Of a DNA stretch of 64,000 nucleotides, positions 31,122-50,305 are shown piece by piece. Each line of letters opens with the position of its first letter. Within the stretch, counting starts at the first letter, position 1. The stretch is taken from IMG/VR virus record IMGVR_UViG_3300035660_000006. The stretch is one strand, 5' to 3'. This DNA is from a virus. The notes beneath the pieces are model-generated. The model was given only the letters and a program-made list of their open reading frames with translations. It was not told where the DNA came from and ran no database searches. The position numbers and the translations under genes were made by a program.

Positions 31122-32324
31122 GTGAACATAATGATAGTCAGCGATATGATTTCTCCATATCTTGGGGGGTCAGAATCGTATTGCAAGAATGTTGGTAGAG
31201 AATTAGTCAAACTCGGACATAATGTTTTGTGGGTTGGCATGAGATTTTCGCCAGAATTGAAAGAAGCAGAAACAAATGAAGATGGTGTGAAGATATTAAG
31301 ATTGAATGTCCCTTTCAACGAGAGAAGATTATTCTGCCTTCATCCAAAATTATTATCCCTTATGAAAGATGCTGATGTCGTTCAATTCAATAGTTTTGTC
31401 AGTGCTATTACTGGTGGATTTATTGCAAAAATAATGAAGAAACCTTCGGTTGGGCTTTGTCACGAAATGTTTGCTGACTTATGGCAGAAGTTTACTAACA
31501 ACAGGATTGAACAGATAATCTATCCAGCAATCGAGAAATTAATTTCAATCAATCCCTATATCGCTTGGATAGTCCCCTGCGATTATACAAAGAATACATT
31601 GATTAAAATGGGGGTAAGACCAGAGATAATCAAGAAGATTCCACATGGAATAGACACTAAACTTTTTCACCCCAAATATGGGAGTTTCATTGAAAAATAT
31701 AGATTATGGGATAGGTTTGTGATTCTATATTCTGGAAGGTATGGCTTCAAGGGAACATGCTACTCAAAGAACCAAAAAGTATTGTTTGATGCATTCAAAA
31801 AAGTGAAAGTGGAAATTCCAAGTGCAGTTCTGTTGATGGTTGGCTCAGATTTTGAAAATGTAAGACCTTACATAGAAAGTATTGGTCTGGAGATAGGAAA
31901 AGATGTCATTTATGCTGGAAAGATTCCTGACAAACAGATGCCAGAATTTTATTCTTCTGGAGATGTATTTGTGAGTAGTTCACTTTCAGAAGGCTTCGGT
32001 TTCAGTATTCTTGAAGCACAAGCATGTGGTTGCCCTGTCGTAGCATTTGCGAATGGAAGTATCCCAGAAGTAGTATCAGATAATAAAACTGGAATATTGA
32101 TAAAAAAAAGAAAGACTTCTTATGGTCTTGCAAAAGGAATAAAAAATATATACAAATATCGCAGAATGAAAATTCTTATGGGTTTAAATGCGATGCGATG
32201 GGTAAAGAAATTCAGTTGGAAAAAATCAGCAAAGGCACATTCAGATTTGTATGAAGAGGTATATTGCTGGTATAAAATAAATAGGGTGAGAGAGTGTTTT
32301 GGATGGAAAAAGATAAAGTCTTAG
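31122..32324 (+). CDS. GT4-family (GT-B) glycosyltransferase
   Basis: EGFGFSILEAQACGCPVVA E..E motif. Confidence 0.8.
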   Translation: MNIMIVSDMISPYLGGSESYCKNVGRELVKLGHNVLWVGMRFSPELKEAETNEDGVKILRLNVPFNERRLFCLHPKLLSLMKDADVVQFNSFVSAITGGFIAKIMKKPSVGLCHEMFADLWQKFTNNRIEQIIYPAIEKLISINPYIAWIVPCDYTKNTLIKMGVRPEIIKKIPHGIDTKLFHPKYGSFIEKYRLWDRFVILYSGRYGFKGTCYSKNQKVLFDAFKKVKVEIPSAVLLMVGSDFENVRPYIESIGLEIGKDVIYAGKIPDKQMPEFYSSGDVFVSSSLSEGFGFSILEAQACGCPVVAFANGSIPEVVSDNKTGILIKKRKTSYGLAKGIKNIYKYRRMKILMGLNAMRWVKKFSWKKSAKAHSDLYEEVYCWYKINRVRECFGWKKIKS

Positions 32325-32405
32325 CAGAGTTGTCATTGCTTCTGACAAATGGTGGTGAGACCAAAAAAATAAAGCAACTCCAGAGAGAACTGAAAATGTT
32401 GGAAA

Positions 32406-33866
32406 ATGAAGAGGCAAGAAAAAATGGGTGAAATTAAAATTGACATTCCAATAAACGAAGATACACTATTCTTTATAGCATTTTTTGTAATTCTGGCTAT
32501 CCATTTGTATCCACTCGTGAGATATTCCCTGCCTCTCGGCTGGGACAATGGTTTTTATTTTTATGCTCTAACTAAAAGAATAGAACCCCTGTCAACTGCC
32601 CAAGAACCATTATATTTTTATCTCGCTTATGCTCTGTCAAATATATTTGGTGTGATACCAACCATAAAATTAATTCAGTTTGCTTCAATAATAATTTTAA
32701 GTATTGGAACATACTTGTTCACGAGAGAATATTTTGACAAGAGGACAGCAATAATAATCATGTTGATAGTTGCAATGATTCCTGCCACGAGCAGGATTTG
32801 GCAAGACCAAGAAAGAAACATACTTGCACTTTCACTTTTTCCACTTTTGCTTTATGTTTTGCTGAAGAATGAAATGCAGTATACACTTGCAAGTGGGTTA
32901 ATTCTTGGATTGATTGGATTGACACACAGATTTGTTTATCTCTTCGCAATAGCAGGTTTGGGTCTGTTTACCCTAACCAAACTGAAGAAGTTATGGGTGA
33001 GAAATGGGGTTGTATTAGCAATTTCACTGATAATGGTTAGTCCATTCTTATTTTACAGATTCTTTGTTATACTTCCAACAACGCAACTGGAAGCAGTAAC
33101 ACTTTTCAAATGGGAACAAGTTCCATTTCAATTTAGTTACATAATACAAACATCAAGCATGGCTGTATTTTTTGGAATATGTTCCTTCCTGTTAGTCTTG
33201 CTTCACAACAAAAGAGATGAGCCAACAATTCTTTTAATGTGTTATTTTGTTTTTGCCTTTATATTATTCACAGGGTTAGTTGGAACACCATTTCTCGTTT
33301 ATGAAAGATATATGTTGATTTTCTCTATTATGAGTGCTATATTTTCAGCACCATACATTTCAGAATTTATTAAATCGAGTTTCAAGCCAGTTTATGTAAA
33401 TTTAATTTTAACATTTTTTGTAATTATACTGATAATATTTGGTTTTTCATACATCAAAGAATTAACCCCATTTATCATTCCACAAGAGATAGAAGCATTC
33501 AAATGGATAAATTATAATTTACCAGCAAATACAACTTTGTTGATTCCAAGCAGAGAACATTATTGGGCAGATGCTATCACAGGAAAAAACATAGTTCCCC
33601 TTGAATGGTATCAATTGCTTATGCAACAACCACCAACAGATGAGGTAAAAATCATAACAGGTAGTATAGTTGAATCAGAAGAAGCATTGAAAAAAGTGAA
33701 AGTGAAATACAACCAGACAGATATTTACTTATTTTTTACCTTACCAAACGACCCAATATTACCTTCTGATAACACTGCCTATCAATTATTTTTACAAAAA
33801 ACAGCAAAATGGAATCAGACTATGACTTGGGGGAATGGAACAGTGTCATTTTTGTTCAAGTTGTGA
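32406..33866 (+). CDS. polytopic membrane protein, GT-C-like glycosyltransferase candidate
   Basis: about 12 hydrophobic segments; 486 aa; adjacent to GT4. Confidence 0.5.
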   Translation: MKRQEKMGEIKIDIPINEDTLFFIAFFVILAIHLYPLVRYSLPLGWDNGFYFYALTKRIEPLSTAQEPLYFYLAYALSNIFGVIPTIKLIQFASIIILSIGTYLFTREYFDKRTAIIIMLIVAMIPATSRIWQDQERNILALSLFPLLLYVLLKNEMQYTLASGLILGLIGLTHRFVYLFAIAGLGLFTLTKLKKLWVRNGVVLAISLIMVSPFLFYRFFVILPTTQLEAVTLFKWEQVPFQFSYIIQTSSMAVFFGICSFLLVLLHNKRDEPTILLMCYFVFAFILFTGLVGTPFLVYERYMLIFSIMSAIFSAPYISEFIKSSFKPVYVNLILTFFVIILIIFGFSYIKELTPFIIPQEIEAFKWINYNLPANTTLLIPSREHYWADAITGKNIVPLEWYQLLMQQPPTDEVKIITGSIVESEEALKKVKVKYNQTDIYLFFTLPNDPILPSDNTAYQLFLQKTAKWNQTMTWGNGTVSFLFKL

Positions 33867-34048
33867 TTGCATGGATGTTATAATTTTTTTGATTTTATTT
33901 TTATTTGTTGTATTATGGCTATATTTCTTTTTTAGTTACAAACAAGAAGACTTACCAAAAATTTAGGATAACATTAACATTTTATGAATGTAAACTTAAA
34001 TTCTTTTGACATCCAAAACTTATAAGCATACATCCTATAATTTTAATT

Positions 34049-34258
34049 ATGGAGATAGACAGAATAAAGATTTCAGACGCAATAAACAAGTTAAAAGACC
34101 CAATAACCATCTGCGATATAATGTCAGAACTTGGATTGGAACTGTGCAATGAAAACAAGTTAAAAGTGAAGATGATACTTGAAGACTTTGTTAACAGAAA
34201 ATGGTTAGAAAACTCGACAAATCTCTATTTCAGGACATTTGAGGTGTTTAGAATATGA
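34049..34258 (+). CDS. small protein upstream of TnpB
   Basis: ORF. Confidence 0.35.
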   Translation: MEIDRIKISDAINKLKDPITICDIMSELGLELCNENKLKVKMILEDFVNRKWLENSTNLYFRTFEVFRI

Positions 34259-34380
34259 ATGTAAGAGAACTAACTACTCGGCAATTAGTCGAATATCAAG
34301 AACTGAAAGAGTTGGGCTGGTCGACAAAAAAGATATTTGAAGAAGTGTTCAAAATATATTAGATTACTATATAAAACTAT

Positions 34381-35499
34381 ATGTTAAAAAATATAAATAT
34401 GACTACAAAGGTTATAAAATGTGGTGTTGTCGGTCTAACCAACAATAAAAAAGAATGTTTGGACAGTGAATGGTCTAACTTTCAAGATTTTCTACAACTG
34501 AAAAATACTCTTTGGTGGAAGAATGATTGGGGTAAGAACATCTATTCTGCCAACAAACAACAGGCAGAAAGGTTCTACAAATCAATAGAGGAAGGAAAGG
34601 AATACCCAATTTCAATCAGAAAAGACCTAATACAGATTGAAAAAAAGGATACAAAACTCGCTAAATATTGGTTCAGAATGAGAGTTAAGTCAAAAAGAAA
34701 TCTATGGTTGGCAATAAAACCACACCAACCAATCTCTGATGATGTTGAATTTCAAGAGAGTAAATTACTTAAAAAGAATGGTCAATACTTCATCTATCTT
34801 ACTATTCAAAAGGAAATCAAAATAAAAAAATCATACTCAAACATACTCTCCATAGATTTAGGAGTGAAATGGATTGCTACTGTCTGTGACATGAAATCCA
34901 AAAGACCTGTTTTCTATGGGAAAGAGTTGAGAGGAATTAGAGGAAAACATTTCTATCTAAGAAGGAAAATTCAAAAGAAAAAGATAAGACAAATGGGAAA
35001 GTGGTTGGAAAATAACAAAGAAGAAAGAATAGTGAATGACTTAATACATAAAATTTCAAGAGATATTGTCAATAAAGCAAAGGAAACAAACTCCATGATT
35101 TGTTGGGGTGATATAAAAGGAATAAGGAAAAACAACAAAGGAAGAAAGTTCAACAGGAAATTGAATAGTTTTCCATTCTACAAATTGAAAGAGCAAATCA
35201 GATACAAAGCAGAATGGGAAGGAATAAAAGTTGTTGAAATTAGCGAAGCATGGACATCACAAATTTGTAATAAATGTAGTGAGAAGGGAACAAGAAATAA
35301 AGGTTTGTTCAAATGTAATAGTTGTGGATATGAGGATAATTCAGATAGGAATGGTAGTCTAAACATAGGCAAACGAGTTCTTGGGCAAGTCTCAAGAATA
35401 GGGGTATCTGTGAATATACCCAAAACTGAAGCAGAAAACATAAAGAATACAAAAATTAGAAATTCAGTAAGCGACTTCAGAAGCCACCTATTTCAATAG
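34381..35499 (+). CDS. tnpB: TnpB (IS200/IS605 OrfB) RNA-guided nuclease family, solo
   Basis: RuvC-I SIDLGVKWIATV; zinc finger CNKCSEKG...CNSCGYEDNSDRNGSLNIGKR; RuvC-III. Confidence 0.85.
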   Translation: MLKNINMTTKVIKCGVVGLTNNKKECLDSEWSNFQDFLQLKNTLWWKNDWGKNIYSANKQQAERFYKSIEEGKEYPISIRKDLIQIEKKDTKLAKYWFRMRVKSKRNLWLAIKPHQPISDDVEFQESKLLKKNGQYFIYLTIQKEIKIKKSYSNILSIDLGVKWIATVCDMKSKRPVFYGKELRGIRGKHFYLRRKIQKKKIRQMGKWLENNKEERIVNDLIHKISRDIVNKAKETNSMICWGDIKGIRKNNKGRKFNRKLNSFPFYKLKEQIRYKAEWEGIKVVEISEAWTSQICNKCSEKGTRNKGLFKCNSCGYEDNSDRNGSLNIGKRVLGQVSRIGVSVNIPKTEAENIKNTKIRNSVSDFRSHLFQ

Positions 35500-35700
35500 A
35501 TGGCAGTTCACAAGTTTCACATATCAAGTATCTTTAATAGGTGATAATTCATGTTCAGCGAGTTTCAGAATAGCAAAGAGATATATTTATTAGACCCAAC
35601 AAACGCAATAATGATAGTCAATGTCTTTCCTAACTTAAAAAACTTTCTCACTGAAAGAAAAATAGCATCATTTCTGTTCAACTTTAACATTGGCATCTGA
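34381..35700 (+). mobile_element. IS200/IS605-family element remnant (tnpB without tnpA); right end / omega-RNA region expected within about 200 nt past the stop
   Basis: TnpB ORF inserted between glycosyltransferase genes on opposite strands. Confidence 0.5.
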
Positions 35701-35829
35701 TTTTTGCATGAGATTTGCTCTCCACTTATTATGCTCATACTTTACTTTTTCTTTTCTTAATCTTCTCCTGTCTTTTTTTCTCCTTCCAGTCTCATTTCTT
35801 TTCCCCTTTCTCCTTTCTATAACTACCAT

Positions 35830-36549
35830 TTATCTCTTCTCCAAAATTATCTTACCTAAACATATTATTCCATTTAGAGCATTCATAAGACCATCTTTAA
35901 TTTTTGTTCCTCTTCCTTTTATGAAAGATGATTCAACTGGAATATAAAATATTTTTCCACCTCGTCTGCCACAAATAATATTTGATTCAATTTCAATTGA
36001 ATATCTTGCACTGGAACTGTATTTCAGCAAATTCAAAGCCATTTCATAATTATACAACCTGTATCCACTTTCGCTGTCTTTTATTTTAAGACCAGAAAAC
36101 AATGAACTTAATTTATTCAAAAAATAATTTCCTAACTTTTTGGAGAATGGATATTTTGACAAGTCTCTTTCTCCAACAATTAAAATAGGTGCAATTTTCA
36201 AAAGAGATGTAAAATTTAATAATTCAATCATATCAACAAACTTGGGAATATATTTTGGGTCTAACTGCCCATCAGCATCCACCATTATCAAAGCATCATT
36301 TTCATTGAAAATTTTATTTGTCATAAGATAATATATCATATACCTCAATGTGCTTCCTTTTCCAAGATTGCATGGGTTTGAAATGACACTTGCTTTATTT
36401 CTTTCTGCAATTATTCTTGTTTTATCAATGCTTCCATCATCAAATACATAAATAAATTTGGTATATTTTCTCACTTTTTTAATTACTTCGCCTATAGTCT
36501 TTTCTTCATTTTTTGCAGGAATTCCAACAATAATTTTTCCCATTGTCAT
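35830..36549 (-). CDS. GT2-family glycosyltransferase (dolichyl-phosphate sugar synthase-like)
   Basis: VFDDGSIDKT; VDADGQ (DxD). Confidence 0.8.
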   Translation of the reverse strand: MTMGKIIVGIPAKNEEKTIGEVIKKVRKYTKFIYVFDDGSIDKTRIIAERNKASVISNPCNLGKGSTLRYMIYYLMTNKIFNENDALIMVDADGQLDPKYIPKFVDMIELLNFTSLLKIAPILIVGERDLSKYPFSKKLGNYFLNKLSSLFSGLKIKDSESGYRLYNYEMALNLLKYSSSARYSIEIESNIICGRRGGKIFYIPVESSFIKGRGTKIKDGLMNALNGIICLGKIILEKR

Positions 36550-37365: not shown

Positions 37366-37867
37366 GATGATAAAAATGGTTGAAGAAAAAAGAACAAACA
37401 GAATAATATTAATTGTTTTTGGATTAGTGTTTATTTTTGGTCTTGCTCAATTGATATGGAAATTTGCTGAAAATTATAGACTTAATAATTGCATAGAAGG
37501 TTGTTTCTACAAAGGAACAGAGATTTGGTGTGATATGGGTTGTTGGTATTTGTTTGATAAATATGATGTAAATATTTCAGATGTTAAACTTCCAACAGAA
37601 TGTGAACAATGGGGTGGAAAATACCCCTTTTTATGCACAAGAAATTAAAAAATAGAAGTTGCCTCTAATCGGTCATTTTCCCAGCACTGCAAAAGGATAC
37701 AGGCATGTCCCTTTCGAGGCAAAATTGGGGTGTTAAAAGTGGGCATCTCCAAAATAGTGCAAACACTACCACAAATTATTTAGGATTGCATGTATTTTTT
37801 GATTTATATGTTAGAGACTATCGTTTGATTTTAAAAGTTTAAATATATTAAAAGTTAAAATAGTATT

Positions 37868-38062
37868 ATGTCAGAAATAGAAGAAAAAGTAATGGCATTC
37901 CTTGAGGCATCTCCCACTTCCTCATTCAATTTCTCAGAGATAAGCAGAGCAGTCGGAAAAGCCCCCCCAACCATAAAAAGGGTGGTTGAAAGGCTTCAAA
38001 AACTGAAAAAAGTAAATGTTATAGACAAGAAATCAATGAAATTGGTGAGGGTATGCAGGTAA
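37868..38062 (+). CDS. small winged-helix protein
   Basis: IKRVVERLQKLKKVNVIDKK. Confidence 0.4.
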   Translation: MSEIEEKVMAFLEASPTSSFNFSEISRAVGKAPPTIKRVVERLQKLKKVNVIDKKSMKLVRVCR

Positions 38063-38250
38063 AGAAAATAGCAGAAATGGAACTGATTAATAGTGAAAAA
38101 GTGAAAAACTTTAGCATAACAATCGACTTTAAGAATAAACTCATGTTCTTTGCAGAAAATGATGGTGCTAATGAGCCTTCTGTCTGTTTGTCTTTGGATG
38201 CTCTAACTGATGAAGCAGTGGATGATGTTAAAATTAAAGGGGTGGAATAA

Positions 38251-38451
38251 ATGGTTTTTTTACCAAAAGCGACCATAAAAAGAATGATAAAAGAATATTA
38301 TCCAGACGATATGATAAGTAGTAAAGCAATTGAGAGATTAATAGTCCAAGCAGAAGATTTTATCAGGATGACATATCTTGATGCAAGAAAGTTTGCAGAC
38401 GCAGGAAACAGAAAAATGGTATCAGAAAAAGATGTAATTCTTGCGACATAG
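38251..38451 (+). CDS. archaeal histone-fold protein (HMf-like)
   Basis: LPKATIKRMIKEYYPDDMISSKAIERLIVQAEDFIRMTYLDARKFADAGNRKMVSEKDVILA versus HMfB [61 protein letters not shown]. Confidence 0.6.
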   Translation: MVFLPKATIKRMIKEYYPDDMISSKAIERLIVQAEDFIRMTYLDARKFADAGNRKMVSEKDVILAT

Positions 38452-38757
38452 AGGAAATGTTTGGTTATTTGTGGGATATAGGTTTCAAAACCATTGCTGT
38501 TTTCCCCTATATTCAAAAATGAAATTAAACCCATTACTCACAAACAACTAAAACACCTCAAATAAAAAGTGAAAAAAATGGCAAGAGCATGTCCAATACT
38601 TATGATAGGAAGAACAGAAGACAAATCAGAATGCATAGGAGAAAGATGCATGTGGTTCATTCCAGCGATTAATGAATGCATATTTCCAGCAATCAACAGA
38701 AGTATCTTTAAAAATATAGAAATCAAAAAATAATTATAAAGTGTCCACTTACTTAGT

Positions 38758-39336
38758 GTGGAAGAGAGGAGAGTATTGCAATTTAGGATATTTGGTAGAG
38801 TATTCACTATTTTCTGGAAAAAAAGTGGAAAAGATTATTCTTTCAATTTTAGGTCTACATTTCTTGAAAAACCATGCGTGGGGATTAATAGCAATGTTTA
38901 TGGTTCTGATATTTATAAAAACCAACTTCATTTTTTTATGGGGGATTTTGATGATATTCTTACATTGAAGCAATTAAAGAAAAAGGTTAGGGAAGTTCAG
39001 GACAGATTTAAGGATTTAGTTGGCGATGGATATATTTACGAAACTTCACCAAATAAGTTTTCTCTGCATTTCTATCAGTTATCAACTTACTGGGAGTGGA
39101 TGAAGGTAATTCATTTTCTTAATGATTGTTTGGATACGAGTTATGTGCGATGGCGTCTCAGGAGAAATTCGATGGTCATGCGATTATCACCTAAATCTTC
39201 TGGTTATATTCCAAAACTTATTGAAGTTGTGAAAACAAAATATCACAAAGGAGAAGACGAGTTTTCAAAAAGAATGATTTTGCAAAATTTAAATAGCGAG
39301 GTGAAAATAAAAGATGGTTCATACACCAAGAATTGA
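38758..39336 (+). CDS. archaeo-eukaryotic primase (AEP/PrimPol)-like protein candidate
   Basis: DxD (FFMGDFDD), SxH (KFSLHFY) and motif-III-like (MVMRLSPKSSGY) in the right order. Confidence 0.4.
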   Translation: MEERRVLQFRIFGRVFTIFWKKSGKDYSFNFRSTFLEKPCVGINSNVYGSDIYKNQLHFFMGDFDDILTLKQLKKKVREVQDRFKDLVGDGYIYETSPNKFSLHFYQLSTYWEWMKVIHFLNDCLDTSYVRWRLRRNSMVMRLSPKSSGYIPKLIEVVKTKYHKGEDEFSKRMILQNLNSEVKIKDGSYTKN

Positions 39337-40606: not shown

Positions 40607-40987
40607 CTATTTTAATTTTAAACTTTAAATATTATACATTTGAAAAATGAAAAGTTTTAAATTTTTGAAAATTTTAAATAAACAAATATGTATAGGTAAT
40701 GTCATGAATAAAAAATTAATTCTTCCATTTGTAATTTTGCTTCTATCATTTCAGATAGGGTTTTCTGCCGAAGGGTGTAATTTATATGTAATAACAGATG
40801 GTGGAGTATTAGTCTTTTTAGAATCAACACTTCATTTTATAATGAATTTGCTGATGTGCTGGTCTGGAATGTATGTTTTATTGTTTTTTATAGCGATAGC
40901 AGGTATTTTAATGATGATATTCAAGGCTTTCGGAAAATGGTGAATTAGATTAAAATATTTAAAAATTTAAAAATCAAAACAGATTGC

Positions 40988-42091
40988 ATGAAAAAACTTT
41001 CATTAATCTTACCACTCTTGATTTTATTATCACCAGTGTTGGGTGCAACATGCGAACAGACTTGTGCGAGTTCTGGATTTGATTATTATGTTTGTTCTGC
41101 TTTTGATTATACTGGTGCTTTCAGTTGCCATTTTTCATCTCCACTATCCTATTGTTATAATTCTTATACAGAAAAGTTTGGAACAGATTGTGCGACAAGA
41201 TGTTTTTGTTTTAAGATAAACGATTGTGGTTGCTCAAATCTGGAATGCAGTGGTGTTTGTGGAGTTTCTGGTTGTGCTGGGACTACTTTAAACATAAATT
41301 CTATCACAAGTTTACCAGCAGACACATTTCTTAATGATTATTCTACTTGGGATGTAAACATACAAAATACAGGAAGCATTTGTGCTTATACTTATGCCGA
41401 ATGTCATGTCAGGTCACCAACAGGAGTTAATTATTATGTTACTGATGGATGTGGTTCAATTCCTGCTGGTTCAACACATACAGTTTATCCACAAAGACAA
41501 GTGAATGAAATAGGAACTTGGCAATTATTATCTTGTAGCATTTATGAAGCACAAGGGGAAGGAGTATGTCAAGCACCAATGATATATAGAGATGAATATG
41601 ATTTTTCTCCAACACATACTTGGGATGTTACAACGTCTTCTTGTCCCCCAACAACATTTGGGGAATGTCCATCAGGTTATGATGGATATTTTCAATGTTT
41701 TGCAAATCATATAGGTCATTGCGAATTTTATTCAGGGATAGGAAAATATTGTTGGACAGATTTTAGAAATTGTCAAACTTTCTATTTGCCAGAAGTGAGA
41801 TGTTGTTCTGCTGGTGCATGTGTTCCTTGCACAGGAACAACTACTACAACAATAGCAGGAACTACAACTACAACATTAAGTGTAACAACTACCACATCAG
41901 AAATTGGTGTTTCAAATTTGGATGAACCATTCAATACAACTGATATGCCAGATGAATTAAGATTTATGAATAATCTCGCAACAGGTCTTTTTAATATGTC
42001 TGGCTCAATAATTGCAGGTTTATTTTTATTGATATTAGCCTTATCTATTGCAACAATATTAATAGTAATAGGAAAGAGGTCGTTAACGTGA
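40988..42091 (+). CDS. secreted Cys-rich, Thr-linker, C-terminally membrane-anchored glycoprotein candidate
   Basis: signal peptide; about 40 Cys; TGTTTTTIAGTTTTT linker; C-terminal TM. Confidence 0.6.
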   Translation: MKKLSLILPLLILLSPVLGATCEQTCASSGFDYYVCSAFDYTGAFSCHFSSPLSYCYNSYTEKFGTDCATRCFCFKINDCGCSNLECSGVCGVSGCAGTTLNINSITSLPADTFLNDYSTWDVNIQNTGSICAYTYAECHVRSPTGVNYYVTDGCGSIPAGSTHTVYPQRQVNEIGTWQLLSCSIYEAQGEGVCQAPMIYRDEYDFSPTHTWDVTTSSCPPTTFGECPSGYDGYFQCFANHIGHCEFYSGIGKYCWTDFRNCQTFYLPEVRCCSAGACVPCTGTTTTTIAGTTTTTLSVTTTTSEIGVSNLDEPFNTTDMPDELRFMNNLATGLFNMSGSIIAGLFLLILALSIATILIVIGKRSLT

Positions 42092-42762
42092 AGAAATATA
42101 TTATTTTAATGATGCTGTTTTGTTTAGTGTTTATTCCAACTGTTATGTCAGTAGAAGTAACTAATGAATCAAGAGAATATGTCAGATACAGAAAAGAAGT
42201 CAGCAATTTCACACAAGAATTTTTATATTTTGATAATTTTGATGGGAAAAACTTTTTTGTTCAATTTTTAGTAATCCCACAATTAAGGGTATATGGTTCA
42301 CCAGAAACCATTTCAATTTGGAATCCAGTTCTCTATTTTCAAAGAGGAAGTGAAATTATTGGTGTTGATACTTCTTCTTGCTGGAAATGGTGGGGCAATG
42401 CTTCAAATCAACAAGAGCAAAGACAAAATGAAGATTGTCCAACTGTATCGTTTGAAATGAAAGCCAATGATAAAAGTATGACAATTTATATGTTTACAAA
42501 TGGAACAGTAAAACCAGCCCCAGCATTTATTACATATTATTATGGATATTCAACAGCGTATGCAGACGATAAAATAATTTATAGTGATACAAGAAGAATT
42601 GCATCAAACTCTTTAACAGAATTTTTTACACTTAATCTCAATATATGGAAAGGTGCTTACTATTTGTTAATAGTTATTATTATGGTTATTGGTGTTCTAT
42701 TTTTTGTGGGTGGAATACCATTATTAATCAAAAAAATAATAGTAAAAGTGAGTGGGGGATAA
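42088..42762 (+). CDS. signal-peptide plus C-terminal TM protein, SCWxWW family paralog A
   Basis: TSSCWKWWGN motif; C-terminal TM anchor. Confidence 0.55.
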   Translation: MKKYIILMMLFCLVFIPTVMSVEVTNESREYVRYRKEVSNFTQEFLYFDNFDGKNFFVQFLVIPQLRVYGSPETISIWNPVLYFQRGSEIIGVDTSSCWKWWGNASNQQEQRQNEDCPTVSFEMKANDKSMTIYMFTNGTVKPAPAFITYYYGYSTAYADDKIIYSDTRRIASNSLTEFFTLNLNIWKGAYYLLIVIIMVIGVLFFVGGIPLLIKKIIVKVSGG

Positions 42763-43553
42763 TGAGAAAAGACATTTTAATATTAGCAGGAATTTTGTTA
42801 GCAATACCAATGGTTTTTTCAATTATGCAAGACCCAAGAACATTAACTGATTTATGGTATTACATTCCTAATTATACAAATTGTTTGGGAAATTCTGATG
42901 GTTTAACACCAATTCCAATTGAAGGGACTTGTGAAAATCTTTGGATGTTTATTTTTACAAATAACACACCATCACAAATAACAACACAATTAATTCCAGC
43001 ACCAAATATGACTTGTTATCGCAATAATCAAAATTGTCCTTTAACAGGATATTATACTAATATGAGTTTTAAGGCAGACATACAGGGAACTTTTCTACCA
43101 TTTGGAATGTATATTGGTGGTGCGAAATCTTCAAACCATTCTGTTGATGTTGGGAGTTGTTGGAATTGGTGGAACACAACAGATGAAGAATTGAGAAGGT
43201 ATCAAAGGTCTTTCTGTCCAATAACAACAATTTCTTTTGGAAGATTTGATAAAGGTGCAGTTCTTTGGTTTTGGTGGGCAGATGTGCCTTATCCATTTGG
43301 AACAGCACAACCAGACACTTTCATTTCTTTCAAAGGTTATGGGGGAACTATGTTTAATGTTGACAATATGTATAGTCCAGATGCCCAATCAATGTTTAGT
43401 GCAATAAGAAGTTATCTAAACATTTCACTTTCACTTTGGAGAATACTTTATTATCTTGTAATGATTGTATTTATTATAACAGGAATATTTTTTGTTTTAG
43501 GAGTTTTGCCTATGGGTTTAAGATGGATAATTAAAAAAATAACAGAGGATTGA
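42763..43553 (+). CDS. signal-peptide plus C-terminal TM protein, SCWxWW family paralog B
   Basis: start at Met MRKDILILAGILLAIPMVFS; VGSCWNWWNT motif; C-terminal TM. Confidence 0.55.
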
Positions 43554-43772
43554 TATGGCAATATTAGGATTAGATGCAATAAACAGATTTTTTGATTCGT
43601 TATATGCTTATTGGGTCGGATATTGGAATGCTTGGGGAGTTCTTGGGATGGCTCTATTTTTTATAATTGCCCAAATTTCAGCAGTTTGGTTCTATATTAA
43701 AATAATGAATGCACTAATAAATTTTGAGCCAAAAGTAAGATTGTTTATTAATAGAGTGATGCTATTTTTTGA

Positions 43773-46139
43773 TTAAAATCTTTTTGAAAGCGATTTCATT
43801 CCAAACAATATAGCCATACCTATACCACCAAGAAGTATCACAATAAATATTGGCTGGACACATAGAATCAAAGTTATAGTTGATTTAAGAATAGATGTAA
43901 TGAAACACATTATATTTGCAGTGCATACTCCAATCTGCCCACAATAAAATCCACTTGGTGGAAGAGGTGTTCCTGTTTCCAGATGATAGACACTATTGTT
44001 CTGCGAGAATATCATCTCCATATTGTTTCCATGATTTGTGAGCCAAATCTCCTGAACTGAATTATTATTAAGATTTAAATAACAATTTGGAATGAATTGT
44101 TCTTTGTCTGCGTAAAGCGTATTTCCGACAACATTCAAATCACTTGAATTAAATTTCATCATTAATATTCCATTCTCTCCACCAACATTAAATGGTGAAG
44201 CGATATAACATTCAGTATCGGAAACACAAGTCATTCCAGAATGTGAACTGATTGGCTCATTATTATAATTTTTCACCTTATAAAATGATATATTAAGTGG
44301 TGGGCTTGGGGGACAGCAATAATTATAACTGGTTGAAAAATTATCTAAAGAATAATTAAGAATATGTAACTCATCATTCCATAAATGGAAGAAATGTGTA
44401 GAATTTCTTGTCATAGATGATGGGACATATAATCTTTGTGTGCCTCTCATAATTCCCAAAGTTGTTGACCTATTAAATGTTTCCAATTCAGTTGCACCAG
44501 AACCTTGCCAGAACCACCAATTCCAAAAATGCCTGTCTTTATATGGGAATGTATTAATATCTCCCCCATCATAAAATGACTTTACAGAAATTGAATCTTG
44601 AGAAAGTGGGGGGCTTGACCAATAAAAATACCATTCACCTTCCAAGTGATTCCAACTATTTCCAATACCATAATATTGTTGAAATATAACTGCTGTATCA
44701 TAATATCCCTGTTCATGCCCAACACGAATAGCCCAATGATAATTATCATCAGTATGAACAAATTTTGTAAATTCACTTACATGGGATATACAACCACATG
44801 AAGGTTCATCGCATGGCTGATTTGGAAATAACCAAAAATAATCCACATCATAAGTATTTGCGTTATCAATAATTATTGTTCCAACAAGATTCCAATTCTT
44901 ATCATATTTGTAGATATGAGTATTGTTGTTGAGATAATAATTATCCCTGCTTTCAGAAAATCTGAAATAAGTTGTAATATAACAAGCACAAGATGTTGGG
45001 TCAACAATATAATGTGGTTGCCAATCTATTGTTTCATTTTTCAATAATGCAGAACTAACTTTAGTCAAACTTAATGTGTTTGGATATGAAACAGCAGAAC
45101 AACTCGAATTATAAGTTATGTCTGGTGGGTGTGCTTGAAGTGTTGTTGTGGTGGTTGGGGGTGGTGGAATATTTTTAACTAAAGGATAATTATCATAATT
45201 AAAAACATTCCCTGTTTTTGAAAGTGGAAGGGGATAATCACAAATATAATCTAAATTATTGTCAATACAAAACATATCAGACCAACCTAAACCATTCAAT
45301 GAAGTATAATAATTTCCACCTATTAATGAGCCTTGAATTATGTTTGTCCCTGAAGTTAGAGTAGTATTCCATTGTGAGTTTGGATTTCCCATCGCTTGAT
45401 ATATGCATTCTGGGTGAGTGCAATCTGTAGGGCTGACCCAAATATTATTATAGAATGTAAGATTTCCACTCAAAGAAACAGTTCCAGTAATATTCACTCT
45501 TGTTATTAGGCTTCGCAAATTTCCCTCATTTCCATGTTTTAAATAAGTTAAATTTGAATCTGTTATTGTTGTATTGCGACCATCCACTGATAAACTTCCT
45601 TTGATATATTTGAATGTGTTATTTCCAAAATGATAAGAAATACTATCATGTGTGCAATGTATTGTCCCACTGATATTTTCAAAATAATCAAATCCAGTAA
45701 TTCCAAAACAATCAATAACATTATTAACAGTTATATTTTTTGAATAACCATAAAGGGCATTACCATAAGCAATATCCCAAAATGAACTTGGATTATTAAA
45801 ATAGAGATTTTCATATTTGAAATAATTTGTGCCATAAGAATGTAAACCATAATACCAATCGGTAACTGAACAATTGTAAATTGTTGTATTGTGTGCGTTA
45901 TTATCCAAGCCAGTAGTTCCCCATGTTTGAATTCCATCAACTCTATGACCCTGACAGTCCAAAATTATATTATTCGCAGAGAAAGTCATACAGGTTGAAG
46001 CACCTGAATTGATAATATCTGCTGTCAAATAATAGACTGTGTTTGCTGAATTCATATTAGTGCAAACATTGATATTTACTGCCGAAACAATCTGAAAACA
46101 AAACAGAATAAAAAGCATAGAGATGATATTTTTTTTCAC
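43773..46139 (-). CDS. large secreted, membrane-anchored protein rich in N-glycosylation sequons (788 aa)
   Basis: signal peptide; dozens of NxS/T; C-terminal TM; possible beta-helix-like repeats. Confidence 0.65.
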   Translation of the reverse strand: MKKNIISMLFILFCFQIVSAVNINVCTNMNSANTVYYLTADIINSGASTCMTFSANNIILDCQGHRVDGIQTWGTTGLDNNAHNTTIYNCSVTDWYYGLHSYGTNYFKYENLYFNNPSSFWDIAYGNALYGYSKNITVNNVIDCFGITGFDYFENISGTIHCTHDSISYHFGNNTFKYIKGSLSVDGRNTTITDSNLTYLKHGNEGNLRSLITRVNITGTVSLSGNLTFYNNIWVSPTDCTHPECIYQAMGNPNSQWNTTLTSGTNIIQGSLIGGNYYTSLNGLGWSDMFCIDNNLDYICDYPLPLSKTGNVFNYDNYPLVKNIPPPPTTTTTLQAHPPDITYNSSCSAVSYPNTLSLTKVSSALLKNETIDWQPHYIVDPTSCACYITTYFRFSESRDNYYLNNNTHIYKYDKNWNLVGTIIIDNANTYDVDYFWLFPNQPCDEPSCGCISHVSEFTKFVHTDDNYHWAIRVGHEQGYYDTAVIFQQYYGIGNSWNHLEGEWYFYWSSPPLSQDSISVKSFYDGGDINTFPYKDRHFWNWWFWQGSGATELETFNRSTTLGIMRGTQRLYVPSSMTRNSTHFFHLWNDELHILNYSLDNFSTSYNYCCPPSPPLNISFYKVKNYNNEPISSHSGMTCVSDTECYIASPFNVGGENGILMMKFNSSDLNVVGNTLYADKEQFIPNCYLNLNNNSVQEIWLTNHGNNMEMIFSQNNSVYHLETGTPLPPSGFYCGQIGVCTANIMCFITSILKSTITLILCVQPIFIVILLGGIGMAILFGMKSLSKRF

Positions 46140-46145
46140 TTTTTT

Positions 46146-46616
46146 TCACCTTAAATATGGATTCTGTTGTTTATTTTTTAATAAAATTGCATACAGTATT
46201 CCAAACACCATAATAATTATTGTAATTGAAATTATTAAAGTTTTAAAAATTTTCATATTTTTGTCTTTTGATGAATTTATTGGTTGTGTTTGGTTGAGAG
46301 AAATATCCATACATTTGTAGTATCCCAAAAGTCTTCTCTCAAAGATGAAATAATATTCATTGACAACATCTTCTGGGTATTGCTTTATTTCACTTTCTGT
46401 CGCAAGTCTTGGAGTATCCAAGCGAACTCTTTCTTCAAGTTTACAGATAATATTTTCTTCTGTAAAATTTCCTCTTATTTTTGGGACAATAGGCATATTA
46501 GTGAAATTCCACTTTTCTGTTGGATTCTTAATATTTGTTGCGATATAGTTTGCTTCTTGGGATAAGGCTTGATTTATCACAAGCAAGAACGCTATTAGAA
46601 ATAGAATGCTTCTCAT
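46146..46616 (-). CDS. signal-peptide plus C-terminal TM protein (156 aa)
   Basis: hydrophobic termini. Confidence 0.5.
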   Translation of the reverse strand: MRSILFLIAFLLVINQALSQEANYIATNIKNPTEKWNFTNMPIVPKIRGNFTEENIICKLEERVRLDTPRLATESEIKQYPEDVVNEYYFIFERRLLGYYKCMDISLNQTQPINSSKDKNMKIFKTLIISITIIIMVFGILYAILLKNKQQNPYLR

Positions 46617-46730
46617 ACCAAATTATTTAACTTTCAAAGTTAAAAGTATTAGTAAAAGAACCCCAAACAAATTAATTGAAAATTTTTAAATATTTATAAA
46701 TTCAAAAAAGATAGTAATTAAGTGAAGGAA

Positions 46731-47303
46731 ATGAAAAAATCCATAATACTCTTATCAATCTTATTGTTGCTACCTTTAATTCAAGCACACACAGTTACAC
46801 TAAAATTATATACAGACTTGCAGAAGACACAGGTTTACTCAAACGAATTCTTATGGGCTTATCTCCAGAACAAGACATTTGTGGGTGGAGAATTAAGTTA
46901 TAATGTATCTTGTTTTAACGCAAAATACACAGGTGGTCAGGCATTAGTCTTATCTGTTCCAACAGGATATTACGATGTCCTGTTTGTTGATGGTGCAATT
47001 TCTTGGAATAATAACACCAATTGCCCAGATAGAGCAGACAACTACGATATTTGGGCAACAGCACAGAGTAATGTTCTGATAGATGGGGACAAAACACTCG
47101 ATTATTTTGTCAACACAACATTGATTGCCCCACCGAGACAATACTTCTGGAATATTTTAAGTTTCAGGGCAATTATTTCAATAATAGTATGGATTTTAAT
47201 AGGTGCGTTGTGTTTTGTTGTAGCATGGAAAACAAATTCAGGGTTGGCAGTAGCAATATTATTTCTAATCTGCTTGATTGTCAAATTGCTTCTTGGGGTT
47301 TGA
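46731..47303 (+). CDS. signal-peptide plus C-terminal TM protein
   Basis: ATG at 46731 after TATA-like motif at 46678. Confidence 0.5.
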   Translation: MKKSIILLSILLLLPLIQAHTVTLKLYTDLQKTQVYSNEFLWAYLQNKTFVGGELSYNVSCFNAKYTGGQALVLSVPTGYYDVLFVDGAISWNNNTNCPDRADNYDIWATAQSNVLIDGDKTLDYFVNTTLIAPPRQYFWNILSFRAIISIIVWILIGALCFVVAWKTNSGLAVAILFLICLIVKLLLGV

Positions 47304-49056: not shown

Positions 49057-49064
49057 AAATATTG

Positions 49065-49087
49065 AAAATATTTAAATATTTGTAAGT
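49065..49087 (+). promoter_or_regulatory. conserved palindromic promoter element GAAAATATTTAAATATTTGTAAG
   Basis: identical to the 60625 copy; ATG 22 nt downstream. Confidence 0.6.
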
Positions 49088-49108
49088 TCTAAATAATAAT
49101 AGATTATT

Positions 49109-50008: not shown

Positions 50009-50017
50009 GGTGAAAAA

Positions 50018-50305
50018 ATGCACGAATGGAAAAAAGTTGGTTATGTTGGTATAGATAGTGGAACTTTAATTTTAACTGACCCTGCTTACATGAAAGAAAA
50101 TTTACCAACTTATGAAGAATTAGTTGGTTTAAAGAAAAGCAGTAAAGTCAAAGGAGACATAACAAAAGAAGTTAAAGTTGGTGGAAGTAGTGCAGTAGTT
50201 ACAAATACAGGTTATGGAGATGGAAAATATCCTGTTTATGCCAAAATAACTGATGAAGGGAAATGGGGAAAAAGAGTTTCAGAGATAAAAGTAAAGTTTA
50301 TTTAA
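50018..50305 (+). CDS. small protein, MHEWKK start (M(V)HKK array 2)
   Basis: AAGGTGAAAAAATGCACGAATGG. Confidence 0.5.
   Translation: MHEWKKVGYVGIDSGTLILTDPAYMKENLPTYEELVGLKKSSKVKGDITKEVKVGGSSAVVTNTGYGDGKYPVYAKITDEGKWGKRVSEIKVKFI

What the first reader, a model, noticed from the sequence alone, without database searches (positions are those of the whole stretch)
38251..38451. Histone-fold protein encoded inside the mobile element
The 66-aa ORF aligns residue by residue with archaeal HMf-type histones (LP-A-I-R-IK ... AGRKT-...-ED-LA). It sits among small wH/HTH genes and an AEP-like gene. Histones on viral or plasmid elements of archaea are uncommon. One could package the element's DNA or remodel host chromatin. 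Two of the DNA-contacting residues differ (AGNRKM vs AGRKT), which suggests altered binding.
Basis: partly seen in the sequence, partly recalled or inferred. Interest (0 to 1): 0.6.

Follow-up and report, generated by a model that had tools for sequence, protein, structure and literature searches.

The report
Divergent histone-fold gene on archaeal virus-like element
A real, conserved 66-residue histone-fold gene lies on a large virus- or plasmid-like element of an uncultured archaeon, always next to a small winged-helix DNA-binding gene, but it lacks the residues that let ordinary archaeal histones stack into long DNA-wrapping fibres, so it is more likely a local DNA-architecture or regulatory factor than a genome packager.

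Summary
The ORF at 38251-38451(+) is real and encodes a histone fold. It scores 32.2 bits against Pfam PF00808 (cut-off 21.4), is under purifying selection (dN/dS 0.03-0.12), and the overlapping antisense ORF is broken in relatives. The 64-kb window has no tRNA, rRNA or housekeeping genes. It carries an MCM helicase, ParB, DNA methyltransferases, homing endonucleases, TnpB, glycosyltransferases and many ORFans, so a mobile-element context is supported. Virus versus plasmid is unresolved.

The protein is not a typical HMf-type histone:
- BLASTP against HMfB finds nothing.
- NCBIfam archaea_histone gives 31 bits against a cut-off of 50.
- The best solved relatives by profile are HMk, NC2-beta/NF-YB and MJ1647.
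- Published hypernucleosome criteria fail (G16 to Tyr, H49 to Ala).
- The equivalents of R19 and T54 are both Met. These are two of the three positions whose joint mutation abolishes HMfB DNA binding.

It belongs to a small clade seen only on similar elements. A wHTH gene lies directly upstream in 21 of 21 loci.

Histones on archaeal extrachromosomal elements are already known (M. jannaschii MJECL29, haloarchaeal plasmids, Borgs, archaeal-like histones in Caudoviricetes). I rate this a new variant of a known kind, of moderate interest.

The parts
37828..37861 (+). Tandem BRE/TATA-like promoter motif (ATTTTAAAAGTTTAAAT / ATATTAAAAGTTAAAAT) ending 7 nt before the wHTH start codon. It probably drives a leaderless operon transcript.
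   Evidence: Direct repeat D1. The sequence is conserved in L005/L007. The motif TTAAAAGTTWAAAT occurs 8 times in the window against 1.4 expected, mostly 10-40 nt upstream of ORF starts. Promoter function is inferred.
37868..38062 (+). 64-aa winged-helix-turn-helix protein, first gene of the cassette.
   Evidence: Weak Pfam HTH_24 match, E=0.0013. A homologue lies immediately upstream of every histone of this clade, in 21 of 21 loci, including those with 45-53% identical histones.
38053..38250 (+). 65-aa acidic small protein of unknown fold, middle gene. It overlaps the wHTH gene by 10 nt and its stop abuts the histone ATG.
   Evidence: ORF list. Homologues are present in L005, L016 and L020 but absent in L017. 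No Pfam or NCBIfam family.
38239..38245 (+). Shine-Dalgarno-like GGGGTGG, 5 nt before the histone ATG.
   Evidence: Sequence read directly. The same AAGGTGA-N5-7-ATG arrangement recurs across the window. Function is inferred.
38251..38451 (+). 66-aa histone-fold protein, the finding itself.
   Evidence: PF00808 32.2 bits. NCBIfam archaea_histone 31 bits, below the cut-off of 50. AF2 model. dN/dS 0.03-0.12. It is the only histone-fold ORF in the window.
38298..38534 (-). 78-aa antisense ORF overlapping the histone gene, judged spurious.
   Evidence: It contains 2-3 stop codons at the equivalent position in L005 and L021, while the histone frame stays intact.
38758..39336 (+). 192-aa conserved neighbour, tentatively AEP (primase-polymerase)-like. 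Context only, not part of the cassette.
   Evidence: PF24387 AEP-like is sub-threshold in 3 of 4 homologues (best E=0.011, cut-off 27 bits). Invariant hhDxDD and SPxKxSxHFY motifs. The PDB profile search was uninformative.

Best explanation
The gene encodes a single histone-fold protein that belongs to a small clade found only on a family of large archaeal virus- or plasmid-like elements. It is made from a three-gene operon (winged-helix protein, small acidic protein, histone) with its own BRE/TATA-type promoter.

It most likely forms a homodimer, since no second histone-fold gene is present. The dimer would act as a local DNA-architectural or regulatory factor on the element's DNA, and possibly the host's. 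The co-encoded winged-helix protein would supply site specificity. It probably does not polymerise into a DNA-wrapping hypernucleosome.

In the lineage in this window, the loop-1 arginine and loop-2 threonine that anchor canonical histones in the DNA minor groove are both replaced by methionine. Direct DNA anchoring is therefore probably weakened, and its action may depend more on its partners.

Shown: the fold assignment, conservation and selection, operon structure, linkage to the wHTH gene, residue states, and the non-chromosomal context. Inferred: dimerisation, DNA binding mode, cooperation with the wHTH protein, and timing of expression.
For: Fold and gene status.

Clade size and distribution:
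- A profile search of 1.84 billion representative proteins gives only 22 hits at E<=1e-3. The closest eight are 67-77 aa proteins.
- All members whose context could be read lie in arrays of small ORFans with glycosyltransferases, radical-SAM, PCNA, exonuclease or TnpB genes.

Linkage: the wHTH gene is directly upstream in 21 of 21 loci. It is absent next to the 39%-identical Methanoregula-type histones.

Operon layout: overlapping or abutting reading frames and an SD-like site. A conserved tandem promoter motif. This motif class also occurs about 95 nt upstream of the first gene (ATPase) of the ATPase-MCM cluster, at 6387. The putative surface-glycoprotein genes use a different palindromic motif.

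Non-hypernucleosomal character, using the criteria of PMC6136690 on the alignment:
- G16->Tyr17, bulky in every relative.
- H49->Ala51.
- L46->Phe48.
- D59 and L62 are kept.

DNA contacts: K13T-R19S-T54K jointly abolish HMfB DNA binding (PMC6867714). The window protein has K14, M21 and M56. R10 (R11), K53 (K55) and the R52-D59 clamp (R54-D61) are kept.

Co-variation: M21 always occurs with M or I at 56 (5 sequences) and R21 always with T56 (10 sequences). The Met-type lineages are still under strong purifying selection (dN/dS 0.03-0.11).

Other: modest charge (pI 9.0, net +1.5). One histone-fold ORF only.
Against: - Oligomeric state and DNA binding are therefore untested.
- The hypernucleosome criteria are rules of thumb derived from HMfB.
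- Most relatives keep the R/T pair, so the clade as a whole may bind DNA conventionally.
- Gene linkage to the wHTH protein does not prove physical or functional cooperation.
- The promoter classes are inferred from motif positions alone.
- Neither the host nor the nature of the element (virus or plasmid) was established.
Confidence: 0.45

Rival explanations
1. Genome-packaging histone. The protein coats and compacts the element's own DNA in nucleosome- or hypernucleosome-like particles, in the cell or in the virion.
For: It has a full-length alpha2. There are 30 residues between the L1 Ser and the L2 Arg, as in HMfB. It keeps R11, K55, the R54-D61 clamp, D61 and L64. Most relatives keep the R/T pair. 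Viral and Borg histones are proposed or shown to package DNA.
Against: - Tyr at the G16 stacking position and Ala at H49 fail two of the three published criteria.
- The window variant lacks R19 and T54 equivalents.
- Net charge is only +1.5.
- There is a single small gene with a promoter motif that differs from the one preceding the putative structural or glycoprotein genes.
- No capsid or terminase was found, so a virion is not even demonstrated.
Confidence: 0.15
2. Anti-host 'capstone' or poison subunit. The protein joins or caps host histone polymers, as homodimers or as heterodimers with host histones. This stops hypernucleosome extension and opens or remodels host chromatin, or keeps element DNA free of it.
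For: It lacks the tetramerisation His and has a bulky residue at the stacking position. The window lineage has lost two DNA-anchor residues yet remains under strong purifying selection. This fits a role that depends on protein-protein contacts.
Against: - It is very divergent from cellular nucleosomal histones. BLASTP against HMfB finds nothing and NCBIfam scores below cut-off, so heterodimerisation is doubtful.
- L1 is one residue longer than in HMfB.
- The host and its histones are unknown.
- This idea does not explain the strict linkage to a wHTH gene.
Confidence: 0.15
3. Non-DNA-binding histone-fold scaffold. Like TAF or CENP-type histone folds, it serves mainly as a protein-protein interaction module, for example assembling with the wHTH and 65-aa proteins.
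For: The top structural matches are TAF12, H2B and NC2-beta. Profile matches to NC2-beta and NF-YB score above canonical single-fold archaeal histones. R19 and T54 equivalents are lost. The three-gene cassette is conserved.
Against: - R11, K14, R54 and K55 are conserved, and relatives keep R/T, which argues that DNA contact is ancestral.
- Foldseek E-values are about 0.2 and TM about 0.6-0.7 for a 66-aa monomer, so they do not discriminate.
- The differences among PDB profile hits are 10 bits or less.
Confidence: 0.1
4. Ordinary host chromosomal histone. The window is part of a cellular genome, for example of a small-genome DPANN archaeon, and this is simply the host's histone.
For: The window is cut from a longer contig, and neither its ends nor a capsid gene were seen. 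DPANN genomes are ORFan-rich and low in GC.
Against: - 64 kb with no tRNA and no Rfam RNA.
- No ribosomal, translation or metabolic genes among about 117 ORFs scanned.
- The content is MCM, ParB, MT-A70 and SAM methyltransferases, a Cas4-like nuclease, Hjc, LAGLIDADG and Vsr/NUMOD endonucleases, and TnpB.
- Related contigs share synteny at 63-80% nucleotide identity. They differ by inteins and by the TnpB insertion position.
- The clade has no member in 185,579 GTDB species genomes apart from a 39%-identical Methanoregula histone.
- MCM scores 386 bits against the cellular cut-off of 940.
Confidence: 0.05

Closest known systems
Canonical archaeal nucleosomal histones (HMfA/HMfB, HTk, HPhA)
   Same: Single histone fold of about 66-69 aa with no tails. 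Collinear apart from one extra L1 residue. Same alpha2 length. The R10, K53, R52-D59, D59 and L62 equivalents are conserved.
   Different: - About 32% identity, and no BLASTP alignment.
- NCBIfam score below cut-off.
- G16->Tyr, H49->Ala, R19->Met, T54->Met.
- The C-terminus ends 5 residues after the clamp Asp, against 10 in HMfB.
- Encoded on a mobile element and linked to a wHTH gene.
MJ1647 (HmvA, PDB 8bdk), the Methanococcales DNA-bridging histone
   Same: Best single-sequence PDB hit (E=8.5e-5). It shares the LPKAT-KR-K N-terminus and the RK...D motif.
   Different: MJ1647 has a 27-aa C-terminal tetramerisation module that is needed for bridging (PMC10516927). The window protein stops at residue 66 and has no such module.
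NC2-beta / NF-YB / HapC (H2B-like transcription-factor histone folds)
   Same: Among the best profile hits in the PDB, behind the tandem H2B and HMk double-fold chains (3.9e-10 to 7e-10). Same L1 length with the conserved Pro. Gap-free alignment to NC2-beta. Conceptually similar pairing of a non-specific histone fold with a sequence-specific partner.
   Different: - No alphaC helix.
- No H2A-like partner gene in the window.
- The partner here is a wHTH protein, not an NF-YA-type subunit.
- Score advantage over archaeal histones is only about 8 bits.
- Membership is not claimed.
Histones already known on archaeal extrachromosomal elements and viruses
   Same: These share the general situation of a histone-fold gene carried by a non-chromosomal archaeal replicon. 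Examples:
- MJECL29 on the M. jannaschii extrachromosomal element (PMC10516927).
- Face-to-face histones on haloarchaeal plasmids and 'phage histones' (PMC11390915).
- Borg histones (PMC12660748).
- Archaeal-like histones in Caudoviricetes predicted to infect Methanobacteriota (bioRxiv 10.1101/2024.12.06.627149).
   Different: - MJECL29 is described as a canonical paralogue.
- Face-to-face and phage histones have a shortened alpha2 and a 3-4-residue alpha3, or an extra C-terminal domain.
- The present clade has no tblastn match in INPHARED phages or PLSDB plasmids, no confirmed match in a pattern-based scan of IMG/VR, and no PHROG family.
- It carries a conserved wHTH partner, which I found described in none of the papers I read.

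Membership tests
Histone-fold superfamily (Pfam PF00808 CBFD_NFYB_HMF) | Profile score above the curated gathering threshold over the full domain | tested here: met
   32.2 bits against 21.4; residues 3-65 on profile 2-64/65.
Histone-fold superfamily (Pfam PF00808 CBFD_NFYB_HMF) | Helix-loop-long helix-loop-helix architecture | tested here: met
   AF2 gives H6-16, H24-55 and H60-63, with pLDDT 76 overall but about 50 over the last 15 residues. Foldseek top hits are all histone folds, with probability 0.9-0.98 but E about 0.2.
Histone-fold superfamily (Pfam PF00808 CBFD_NFYB_HMF) | Intramolecular Arg-Asp clamp (R52-D59 in HMfB) and hydrophobic dimer core (A24, L28, L32, I39, A43) | tested here: inconclusive
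   R54 is invariant among close relatives (Ala in two distant members) and D61 is invariant throughout. The core positions are A26, L30, A34, T41 and A45, so three are identical and two are changed (criteria from PMC6136690).
Archaeal nucleosomal (HMf-type, hypernucleosome-forming) histones | Score above the curated NCBIfam archaea_histone (NF043032) cut-off | tested here: not met
   31 bits against a cut-off of 50. BLASTP against HMfB gives no alignment at E<=100.
Archaeal nucleosomal (HMf-type, hypernucleosome-forming) histones | Dimer-dimer (four-helix-bundle) residues L46, H49, D59, L62 | tested here: not met
   The equivalents are F48, A51, D61 and L64. The His that hydrogen-bonds to D59 is Ala in all 15 close relatives.
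Archaeal nucleosomal (HMf-type, hypernucleosome-forming) histones | Small residue (G16) at the stacking interface | tested here: not met
   Tyr17 in the window, and Y/F/H/L/I/D in all relatives. Bulky residues interfere with multimerisation (PMC6136690).
Archaeal nucleosomal (HMf-type, hypernucleosome-forming) histones | Minor-groove anchoring arginines R10 and R19, with the L2 Thr (T54) | tested here: not met
   R11 is present. R19->M21 and T54->M56 in the window. R and T are present in 10 of 15 close relatives. K13T-R19S-T54K abolishes HMfB DNA binding.
Archaeal nucleosomal (HMf-type, hypernucleosome-forming) histones | Wraps about 30 bp per dimer and gives a 30-bp MNase ladder | not testable with these tools
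   Needs recombinant protein.
Alpha3-truncated histones (face-to-face, bacterial dimer, phage histones; Schwab et al. 2024) | Alpha2 is 4-5 residues shorter than in nucleosomal histones | tested here: not met
   There are 30 residues between the L1 Ser and the L2 Arg, identical to HMfB. Definition from PMC11390915.
Alpha3-truncated histones (face-to-face, bacterial dimer, phage histones; Schwab et al. 2024) | Alpha3 of only 3-4 residues | tested here: inconclusive
   Nine residues follow L2 (SEKDVILAT). AF2 makes only a 4-residue helix there, at pLDDT about 50.
MJ1647-type (Methanococcales) bridging histones | C-terminal two-helix tetramerisation module of about 27 aa | tested here: not met
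   The protein ends at residue 66, five residues after D61. Definition from PMC10516927.
NF-YB / NC2-beta (H2B-like) transcription-factor histone folds | Obligate H2A-like heterodimer partner and a C-terminal alphaC helix | tested here: not met
   No second histone-fold ORF in the window or in related loci. No residues beyond alpha3.
Virus (as opposed to plasmid or other element) | Hallmark genes: major capsid protein, terminase or packaging ATPase, portal | tested here: inconclusive
   - No Pfam or PHROG hallmark was found.
- One small ORF hits the phage family Kyano_Gp96 (E=9e-15).
- A block of secreted, membrane-anchored proteins rich in glycosylation sequons looks like an envelope module but is unproven.
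Mobile / extrachromosomal element (as opposed to host chromosome) | Absence of cellular housekeeping genes, with its own replication, partition and selfish-element genes | tested here: met
   - 0 tRNA and 0 Rfam RNA.
- MCM, ParB_N, methyltransferases, Cas4-like, Hjc, LAGLIDADG, Vsr/NUMOD and TnpB genes.
- Conserved synteny in 10 or more related metagenome contigs.
- The ends of the element were not seen.

The most novel reading that the evidence does not exclude
The wHTH protein, the small acidic protein and the histone fold form a dedicated three-part DNA-recognition module of a previously undescribed family of archaeal virus-like elements. In this module a histone-fold dimer that can no longer polymerise is targeted by a sequence-specific partner, an NF-Y-like logic arising in archaeal mobile elements. 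The module would mark or shape specific sites on the element, or cap host histone fibres. The Met21/Met56 lineage would be a derived form that has given up minor-groove anchoring.
Probability: 0.15. Interest if true: 0.7.

Novelty: new variant of a known kind. Interest (0 to 1): 0.45.

Why it matters
Recent surveys show that prokaryotic and viral histones are far more varied than the HMf paradigm. Very few mobile-element histones of archaea have been examined, and none is known to have a fixed partner gene.

This small clade is restricted to virus-like elements and under strong purifying selection. It fails the sequence rules for hypernucleosome formation and is always co-encoded with a winged-helix protein. 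It offers a compact, testable system of three proteins of about 65 aa each. The question it addresses is what a histone fold does when it is used by a parasite of a histone-containing cell: packaging, regulation or interference with host chromatin.

The naturally occurring R/T and M/M variants at the classical DNA-anchor positions provide a ready-made comparison.

It is not a first. Histones on archaeal extrachromosomal elements, Borgs and tailed viruses are already reported.

Tried and rejected
- Relatives in known viruses and plasmids. An IMG/VR pattern scan gave 151 pattern hits, none confirmed. tblastn against INPHARED phages and PLSDB plasmids gave no match. PHROGs gave no family.
- Host identification. 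A GTDB genome scan gave only a 39%-identical Methanoregula histone on a 5.8-kb contig. MCM is 30% identical or less to every viral or plasmid MCM. Related contigs in NCBI assemblies carry no taxonomy I could read. The host remains unknown.
- Dimer modelling. Oligomer state was therefore not modelled.
- Structured RNA upstream of the operon (37650-37800). Folding energy was no better than shuffles (z=-0.04). Rejected.
- Extending the window. Exact-protein look-ups for left-end ORFs found nothing. The right flank continues for at least 2 kb with more small same-strand ORFans. There is no overlap between the right flank and the window start, so no evidence for circular closure.
- Second histone gene for a heterodimer. 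None was found in the window or in related loci.
- Alpha3-truncated (face-to-face or Bd0055-like) classification. Rejected because alpha2 is full length.
- AEP identity of the 192-aa neighbour. Only sub-threshold support.
Full report
**1. The observation**

The ORF at 38251-38451(+) begins with ATG, ends with TAG and encodes 66 aa: MVFLPKATIKRMIKEYYPDDMISSKAIERLIVQAEDFIRMTYLDARKFADAGNRKMVSEKDVILAT.

- It matches Pfam PF00808 (CBFD_NFYB_HMF) end to end: E=1.3e-7, 32.2 bits against a gathering cut-off of 21.4. It gives weaker matches to CENP-T_C and core Histone.
- AlphaFold2 with a 15-sequence alignment gives helices 6-16, 24-55 and 60-63. Mean pLDDT is 76, but only about 50 over the C-terminal 15 residues.
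- All top Foldseek matches in the PDB are histone folds such as TAF12, H2B and NC2-beta. Probabilities are 0.9-0.98, but E is about 0.2, as expected for a 66-residue monomer.
- The exact protein is encoded on four independent metagenome contigs. One source lists a 73,232-bp contig.
- dN/dS in the histone frame is 0.03-0.12 for correctly registered pairs.
- The longer antisense ORF 38298-38534(-) carries 2-3 stop codons in relatives.
- The gene's GC (32.3%) equals that of the window (31%).

**2. How 'HMf-like' is it?**

A MAFFT alignment with HMfB is collinear apart from one extra residue at the N-terminus and one in loop L1. I verified the HMfB sequence as identical to PDB 1a7w. By my count about 21 of 66 positions are identical. 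Other measures point away from the HMf type:

- BLASTP of the two proteins returns no alignment at E<=100.
- phmmer with HMfB gives 8.7 bits.
- NCBIfam's archaea_histone model gives 31 bits against a cut-off of 50.
- The best single-sequence PDB hit is MJ1647/HmvA (8bdk, E=8.5e-5), then NC2-beta. HMfA, HMfB and HPhA do not appear at E<=10.
- An 18-sequence family profile ranks the PDB hits as follows: tandem H2B and the HMk doublet (two folds each), NC2-beta 3.9e-10, NF-YB/HapC 5e-10 to 7e-10, MJ1647 1.7e-8, H2B 2e-8, and an 'archaeal histone A' 1e-7. HMfB is not among the best 60.
- L1 has the same length as in NC2-beta, with a Pro that is invariant in the family.

These score differences are 10 bits or less. 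I do not read them as phylogeny. They show only that the protein is a divergent member of the PF00808 family, not a typical HMf-type histone.

**3. Residue-level reading**

Henneman et al. (PMC6136690) list features of HMfB and its relatives. Their three criteria for hypernucleosome formation are the dimer-dimer residues, a small residue at position 16, and stacking interactions. Using the alignment, the window protein compares as follows.

| HMfB feature | HMfB residues | Window protein |
|---|---|---|
| Dimer core | A24, L28, L32, I39, A43 | A26, L30, A34, T41, A45 |
| Salt-bridge clamp | R52-D59 | R54-D61 (kept; R54 invariant in close relatives, D61 throughout) |
| Minor-groove arginines | R10, R19 | R11 kept, M21 |
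| Dimer-dimer residues | L46, H49, D59, L62 | F48, A51, D61, L64 |
| Small residue at stacking interface | G16 | Y17 |

- Position 17 is bulky in every relative. Position 51 is Ala in all 15 close relatives and H/N/Y in more distant ones.
- The L2 motif is R54-K55-M56 against R52-K53-T54 in HMfB.
- The triple change K13T-R19S-T54K abolishes HMfB DNA binding (Soares et al. 2000, as cited in PMC6867714). The window protein has K14, M21 and M56, so two of those three positions are changed.
There is no insertion. The changes there are G51->N53 and T54->M56, and the other lost DNA anchor is R19->M21.
- Among 15 close relatives the two positions co-vary perfectly. M21 occurs with M or I at 56 in 5 sequences, including the 67%-identical P0012. 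R21 occurs with T56 in 10 sequences.
- The Met-type genes are still under strong purifying selection (dN/dS 0.03-0.11).
- Alpha2 is full length, so the protein is not one of the alpha3-truncated histones defined by Schwab et al. (PMC11390915).
- The chain ends five residues after D61 and lacks the MJ1647 tetramerisation module (PMC10516927).
- pI is 9.0 and net charge +1.5.

**4. The family**

- The word-indexed search of 5.8 billion proteins found 14 relatives, 66-69 aa long and 67-91% identical.
- An exhaustive profile search of 1.84 billion cluster representatives found only 22 proteins at E<=1e-3. Eight of them are 67-77 aa proteins at 32-53% identity that share the L1 Pro, the K-T/S...E-x-D motif and the short C-terminus.
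- No confirmed match in a pattern-based scan of IMG/VR. No tblastn match in INPHARED phages or PLSDB plasmids, and no PHROG family.
- GTDB species genomes gave only a 39%-identical Methanoregula-type histone.

**5. Context**

The 64-kb window has no tRNA and no Rfam RNA. About 60 larger and 57 smaller ORFs were scanned with Pfam. The recognisable genes are:

| Coordinates | Assignment |
|---|---|
| 6493-7677 | P-loop ATPase, weakly Orc1/Cdc6-like |
| 7993-10125 | MCM helicase (386 bits against the cellular cut-off of 940) |
| 12081 | SAM methyltransferase |
| 12676 | Cas4/PD-(D/E)XK nuclease |
| 13950 | SPFH |
| 15315 | MT-A70 methyltransferase |
| 21064-24317(-) | MoxR-VWA pair |
| 24938 | ParB_N |
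| 28893 | LAGLIDADG endonuclease |
| 31122-36549 | GT4, PMT_2 and GT2 glycosyltransferases |
| 34381 | TnpB |
| 36588 | Hjc |
| 53072, 57387 | Vsr/DUF559/NUMOD endonucleases |

Everything else is ORFan. No ribosomal, translation or metabolic gene was seen. My own rough ATG-only, greedy ORF call gives 123 ORFs, 93 of them on the + strand, covering 87% of the window.

The region 40.6-52 kb encodes nine proteins with signal peptides, C-terminal membrane anchors, many N-x-S/T sequons and Cys-rich regions. This could be an envelope or surface module served by the element's glycosyltransferases, but that is an inference.

A conserved P-loop ATPase (58513-59604) is intein-bearing in some relatives. 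It resembles only generic ASCE ATPases.

I conclude that the DNA is a large extrachromosomal or virus-like element of an archaeon:
- The archaeal signatures are MCM, Hjc, TFIIB-type zinc ribbons, BRE/TATA-like promoter motifs and GGTGA ribosome-binding sites. PCNA is encoded on the related locus L017.
- Virus versus plasmid is unresolved and the host is unknown.

**6. The cassette**

- The histone is the last gene of a tight three-gene unit. The wHTH gene (37868-38062) overlaps the 65-aa gene (38053-38250) by 10 nt. The stop codon of the 65-aa gene abuts the histone ATG. A GGGGTGG ribosome-binding site lies 5 nt upstream of that ATG.
- An HMM built from five wHTH sequences finds a wHTH gene directly upstream of the histone in 21 of 21 loci of the clade. 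That is about eight distinct lineages, including L017 and L020, whose histones are only 53% and 45% identical.
- No wHTH gene lies next to the Methanoregula-type histones.
- The middle gene is present in most lineages but missing in L017.
- Upstream of the wHTH ATG there is a tandem TTAAAAGTT(T/A)AAAT motif that is conserved in relatives.
- That motif occurs 8 times in the window against 1.4 expected, almost always just upstream of ORF starts. One copy, at 6387, lies about 95 nt before the first gene (ATPase) of the ATPase-MCM cluster.
- A different, palindromic motif (AAAATATTTAAATATTTGTAA) marks 7 loci against 0.15 expected. It precedes several of the putative glycoprotein genes (40988, 46722, 49109) but not the histone operon.
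- This suggests, weakly, that the histone is expressed with regulatory and replication genes rather than with structural genes.

**7. Mechanism**

My best reading (confidence about 0.45) is a homodimeric, non-polymerising histone fold. It acts locally on DNA as an architectural or regulatory factor together with the co-encoded wHTH protein. In this lineage, minor-groove anchoring is probably weakened.

| Rival | Confidence |
|---|---|
| Genome-packaging histone | 0.15 |
| Capstone or poison for host histone fibres | 0.15 |
| Protein-protein scaffold without DNA binding | 0.10 |
| Host chromosomal histone | 0.05 |

None of these could be tested directly, because oligomer and DNA-complex modelling was not available.

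**8. What is known**

Histone genes on archaeal non-chromosomal replicons have precedents:
- MJECL29 on the M. jannaschii extrachromosomal element (PMC10516927).
- Face-to-face histones on haloarchaeal plasmids and 'phage histones' (PMC11390915).
- Histones in Borgs (PMC12660748).
- Archaeal-like histones in Caudoviricetes predicted to infect Methanobacteriota (bioRxiv 10.1101/2024.12.06.627149).

Three features appear in none of the papers I read: a clade restricted to mobile elements, its failure of the hypernucleosome criteria, and its obligatory wHTH neighbour. I therefore rate it a new variant of a known kind, with interest 0.45.

Noticed in passing
window 621, 5418(-), 6387, 37831, 37848, 39954(-), 51177, 54705(-): The motif TTAAAAGTTWAAAT (up to 1 mismatch) occurs 8 times against 1.4 expected. 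It sits mostly 10-40 nt upstream of ORF starts, so it is probably a BRE+TATA promoter class of the element.
   Followed up: partly
window 5430, 25902, 40952, 46679, 49065, 60626, 63525: A second, palindromic AT-rich motif, AAAATATTTAAATATTTGTAA, marks 7 loci against 0.15 expected. It lies in front of several membrane or glycoprotein genes and small-ORF arrays. It may be a second promoter or operator class and a target for a dimeric DNA-binding protein.
   Followed up: partly
window 40647-52040: A run of nine genes for secreted proteins with C-terminal anchors, Cys-rich regions and many N-x-S/T sequons (367, 224, 302, 788, 156, 193, 592, 299 and 275 aa). None has a Pfam or PHROG family. Together with GT4, PMT_2 and GT2 at 31-36.5 kb it looks like an envelope or surface glycoprotein module.
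   Followed up: partly
window 58513-59604; relatives P0053, P0055, P0056: A conserved P-loop ATPase (Walker A GGTRTGKSS, Walker B LIDEQ) is a core gene of the element family and hosts inteins in some relatives. Fold searches give only generic RecA/SF3/Zot-like similarity.
   Followed up: yes
window 28893-29711 and 31122-32324; L005 2779-5049: The window has a free-standing LAGLIDADG endonuclease and an intein-less GT4 gene. In relatives, the orthologous GT4 gene carries a Hint/intein insertion (756 aa). This points to active homing-element turnover within the family.
   Followed up: no
window 34381-35499; L005 12970-14148: A TnpB (IS200/605-type) gene lies at different positions in the window element and in its relatives, which implies independent insertions.
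   Followed up: no
window 38758-39336: The 192-aa gene downstream of the histone has invariant hhDxDD and SPxKxSxHFY motifs. It gives sub-threshold hits to Pfam AEP-like (PF24387) in 3 of 4 homologues, so it may be a divergent primase-polymerase or Rep protein.
   Followed up: partly
window, one of 57 small ORFs (position not determined): One small ORF matches Pfam PF23790 Kyano_Gp96 (a T4-like cyanophage protein family) at E=9e-15, and another matches DUF4241 at 6e-7. The batch scan does not say which ORFs they are.
   Followed up: no
window 2919, 10790, 26140, 27351, 28338, 28517, 50306, 50862, 61135, 61645: The unit AAGGTGAAA-N-ATGCACAAAA recurs about ten times. It is a strong GGTGA ribosome-binding site followed by ORFs that start Met-His-Lys. 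This may be a multi-copy family of small genes or simply a shared translation-start context.
   Followed up: no
window 53072-53875 and 57387-58361: Two genes combine zinc-ribbon or NUMOD3/HTH repeats with a C-terminal Vsr/DUF559-type endonuclease domain, so they are probably homing or nicking endonucleases. The second contains an internal 64-nt repeat.
   Followed up: no
window 21064-24317(-): A MoxR-type AAA_5 ATPase followed by a 664-aa VWA-domain protein, on the strand opposite to most genes. The role of this chaperone-like pair on the element is unknown.
   Followed up: no
L017 (SRR11721899 contig, 15.4 kb): A second, distinct element in the same sample as the window's element carries a 53%-identical histone with its wHTH partner, next to PCNA, a DnaQ/PolB-exo-like nuclease, radical-SAM and GT2 genes. 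Related histone-bearing elements therefore co-occur.
   Followed up: partly
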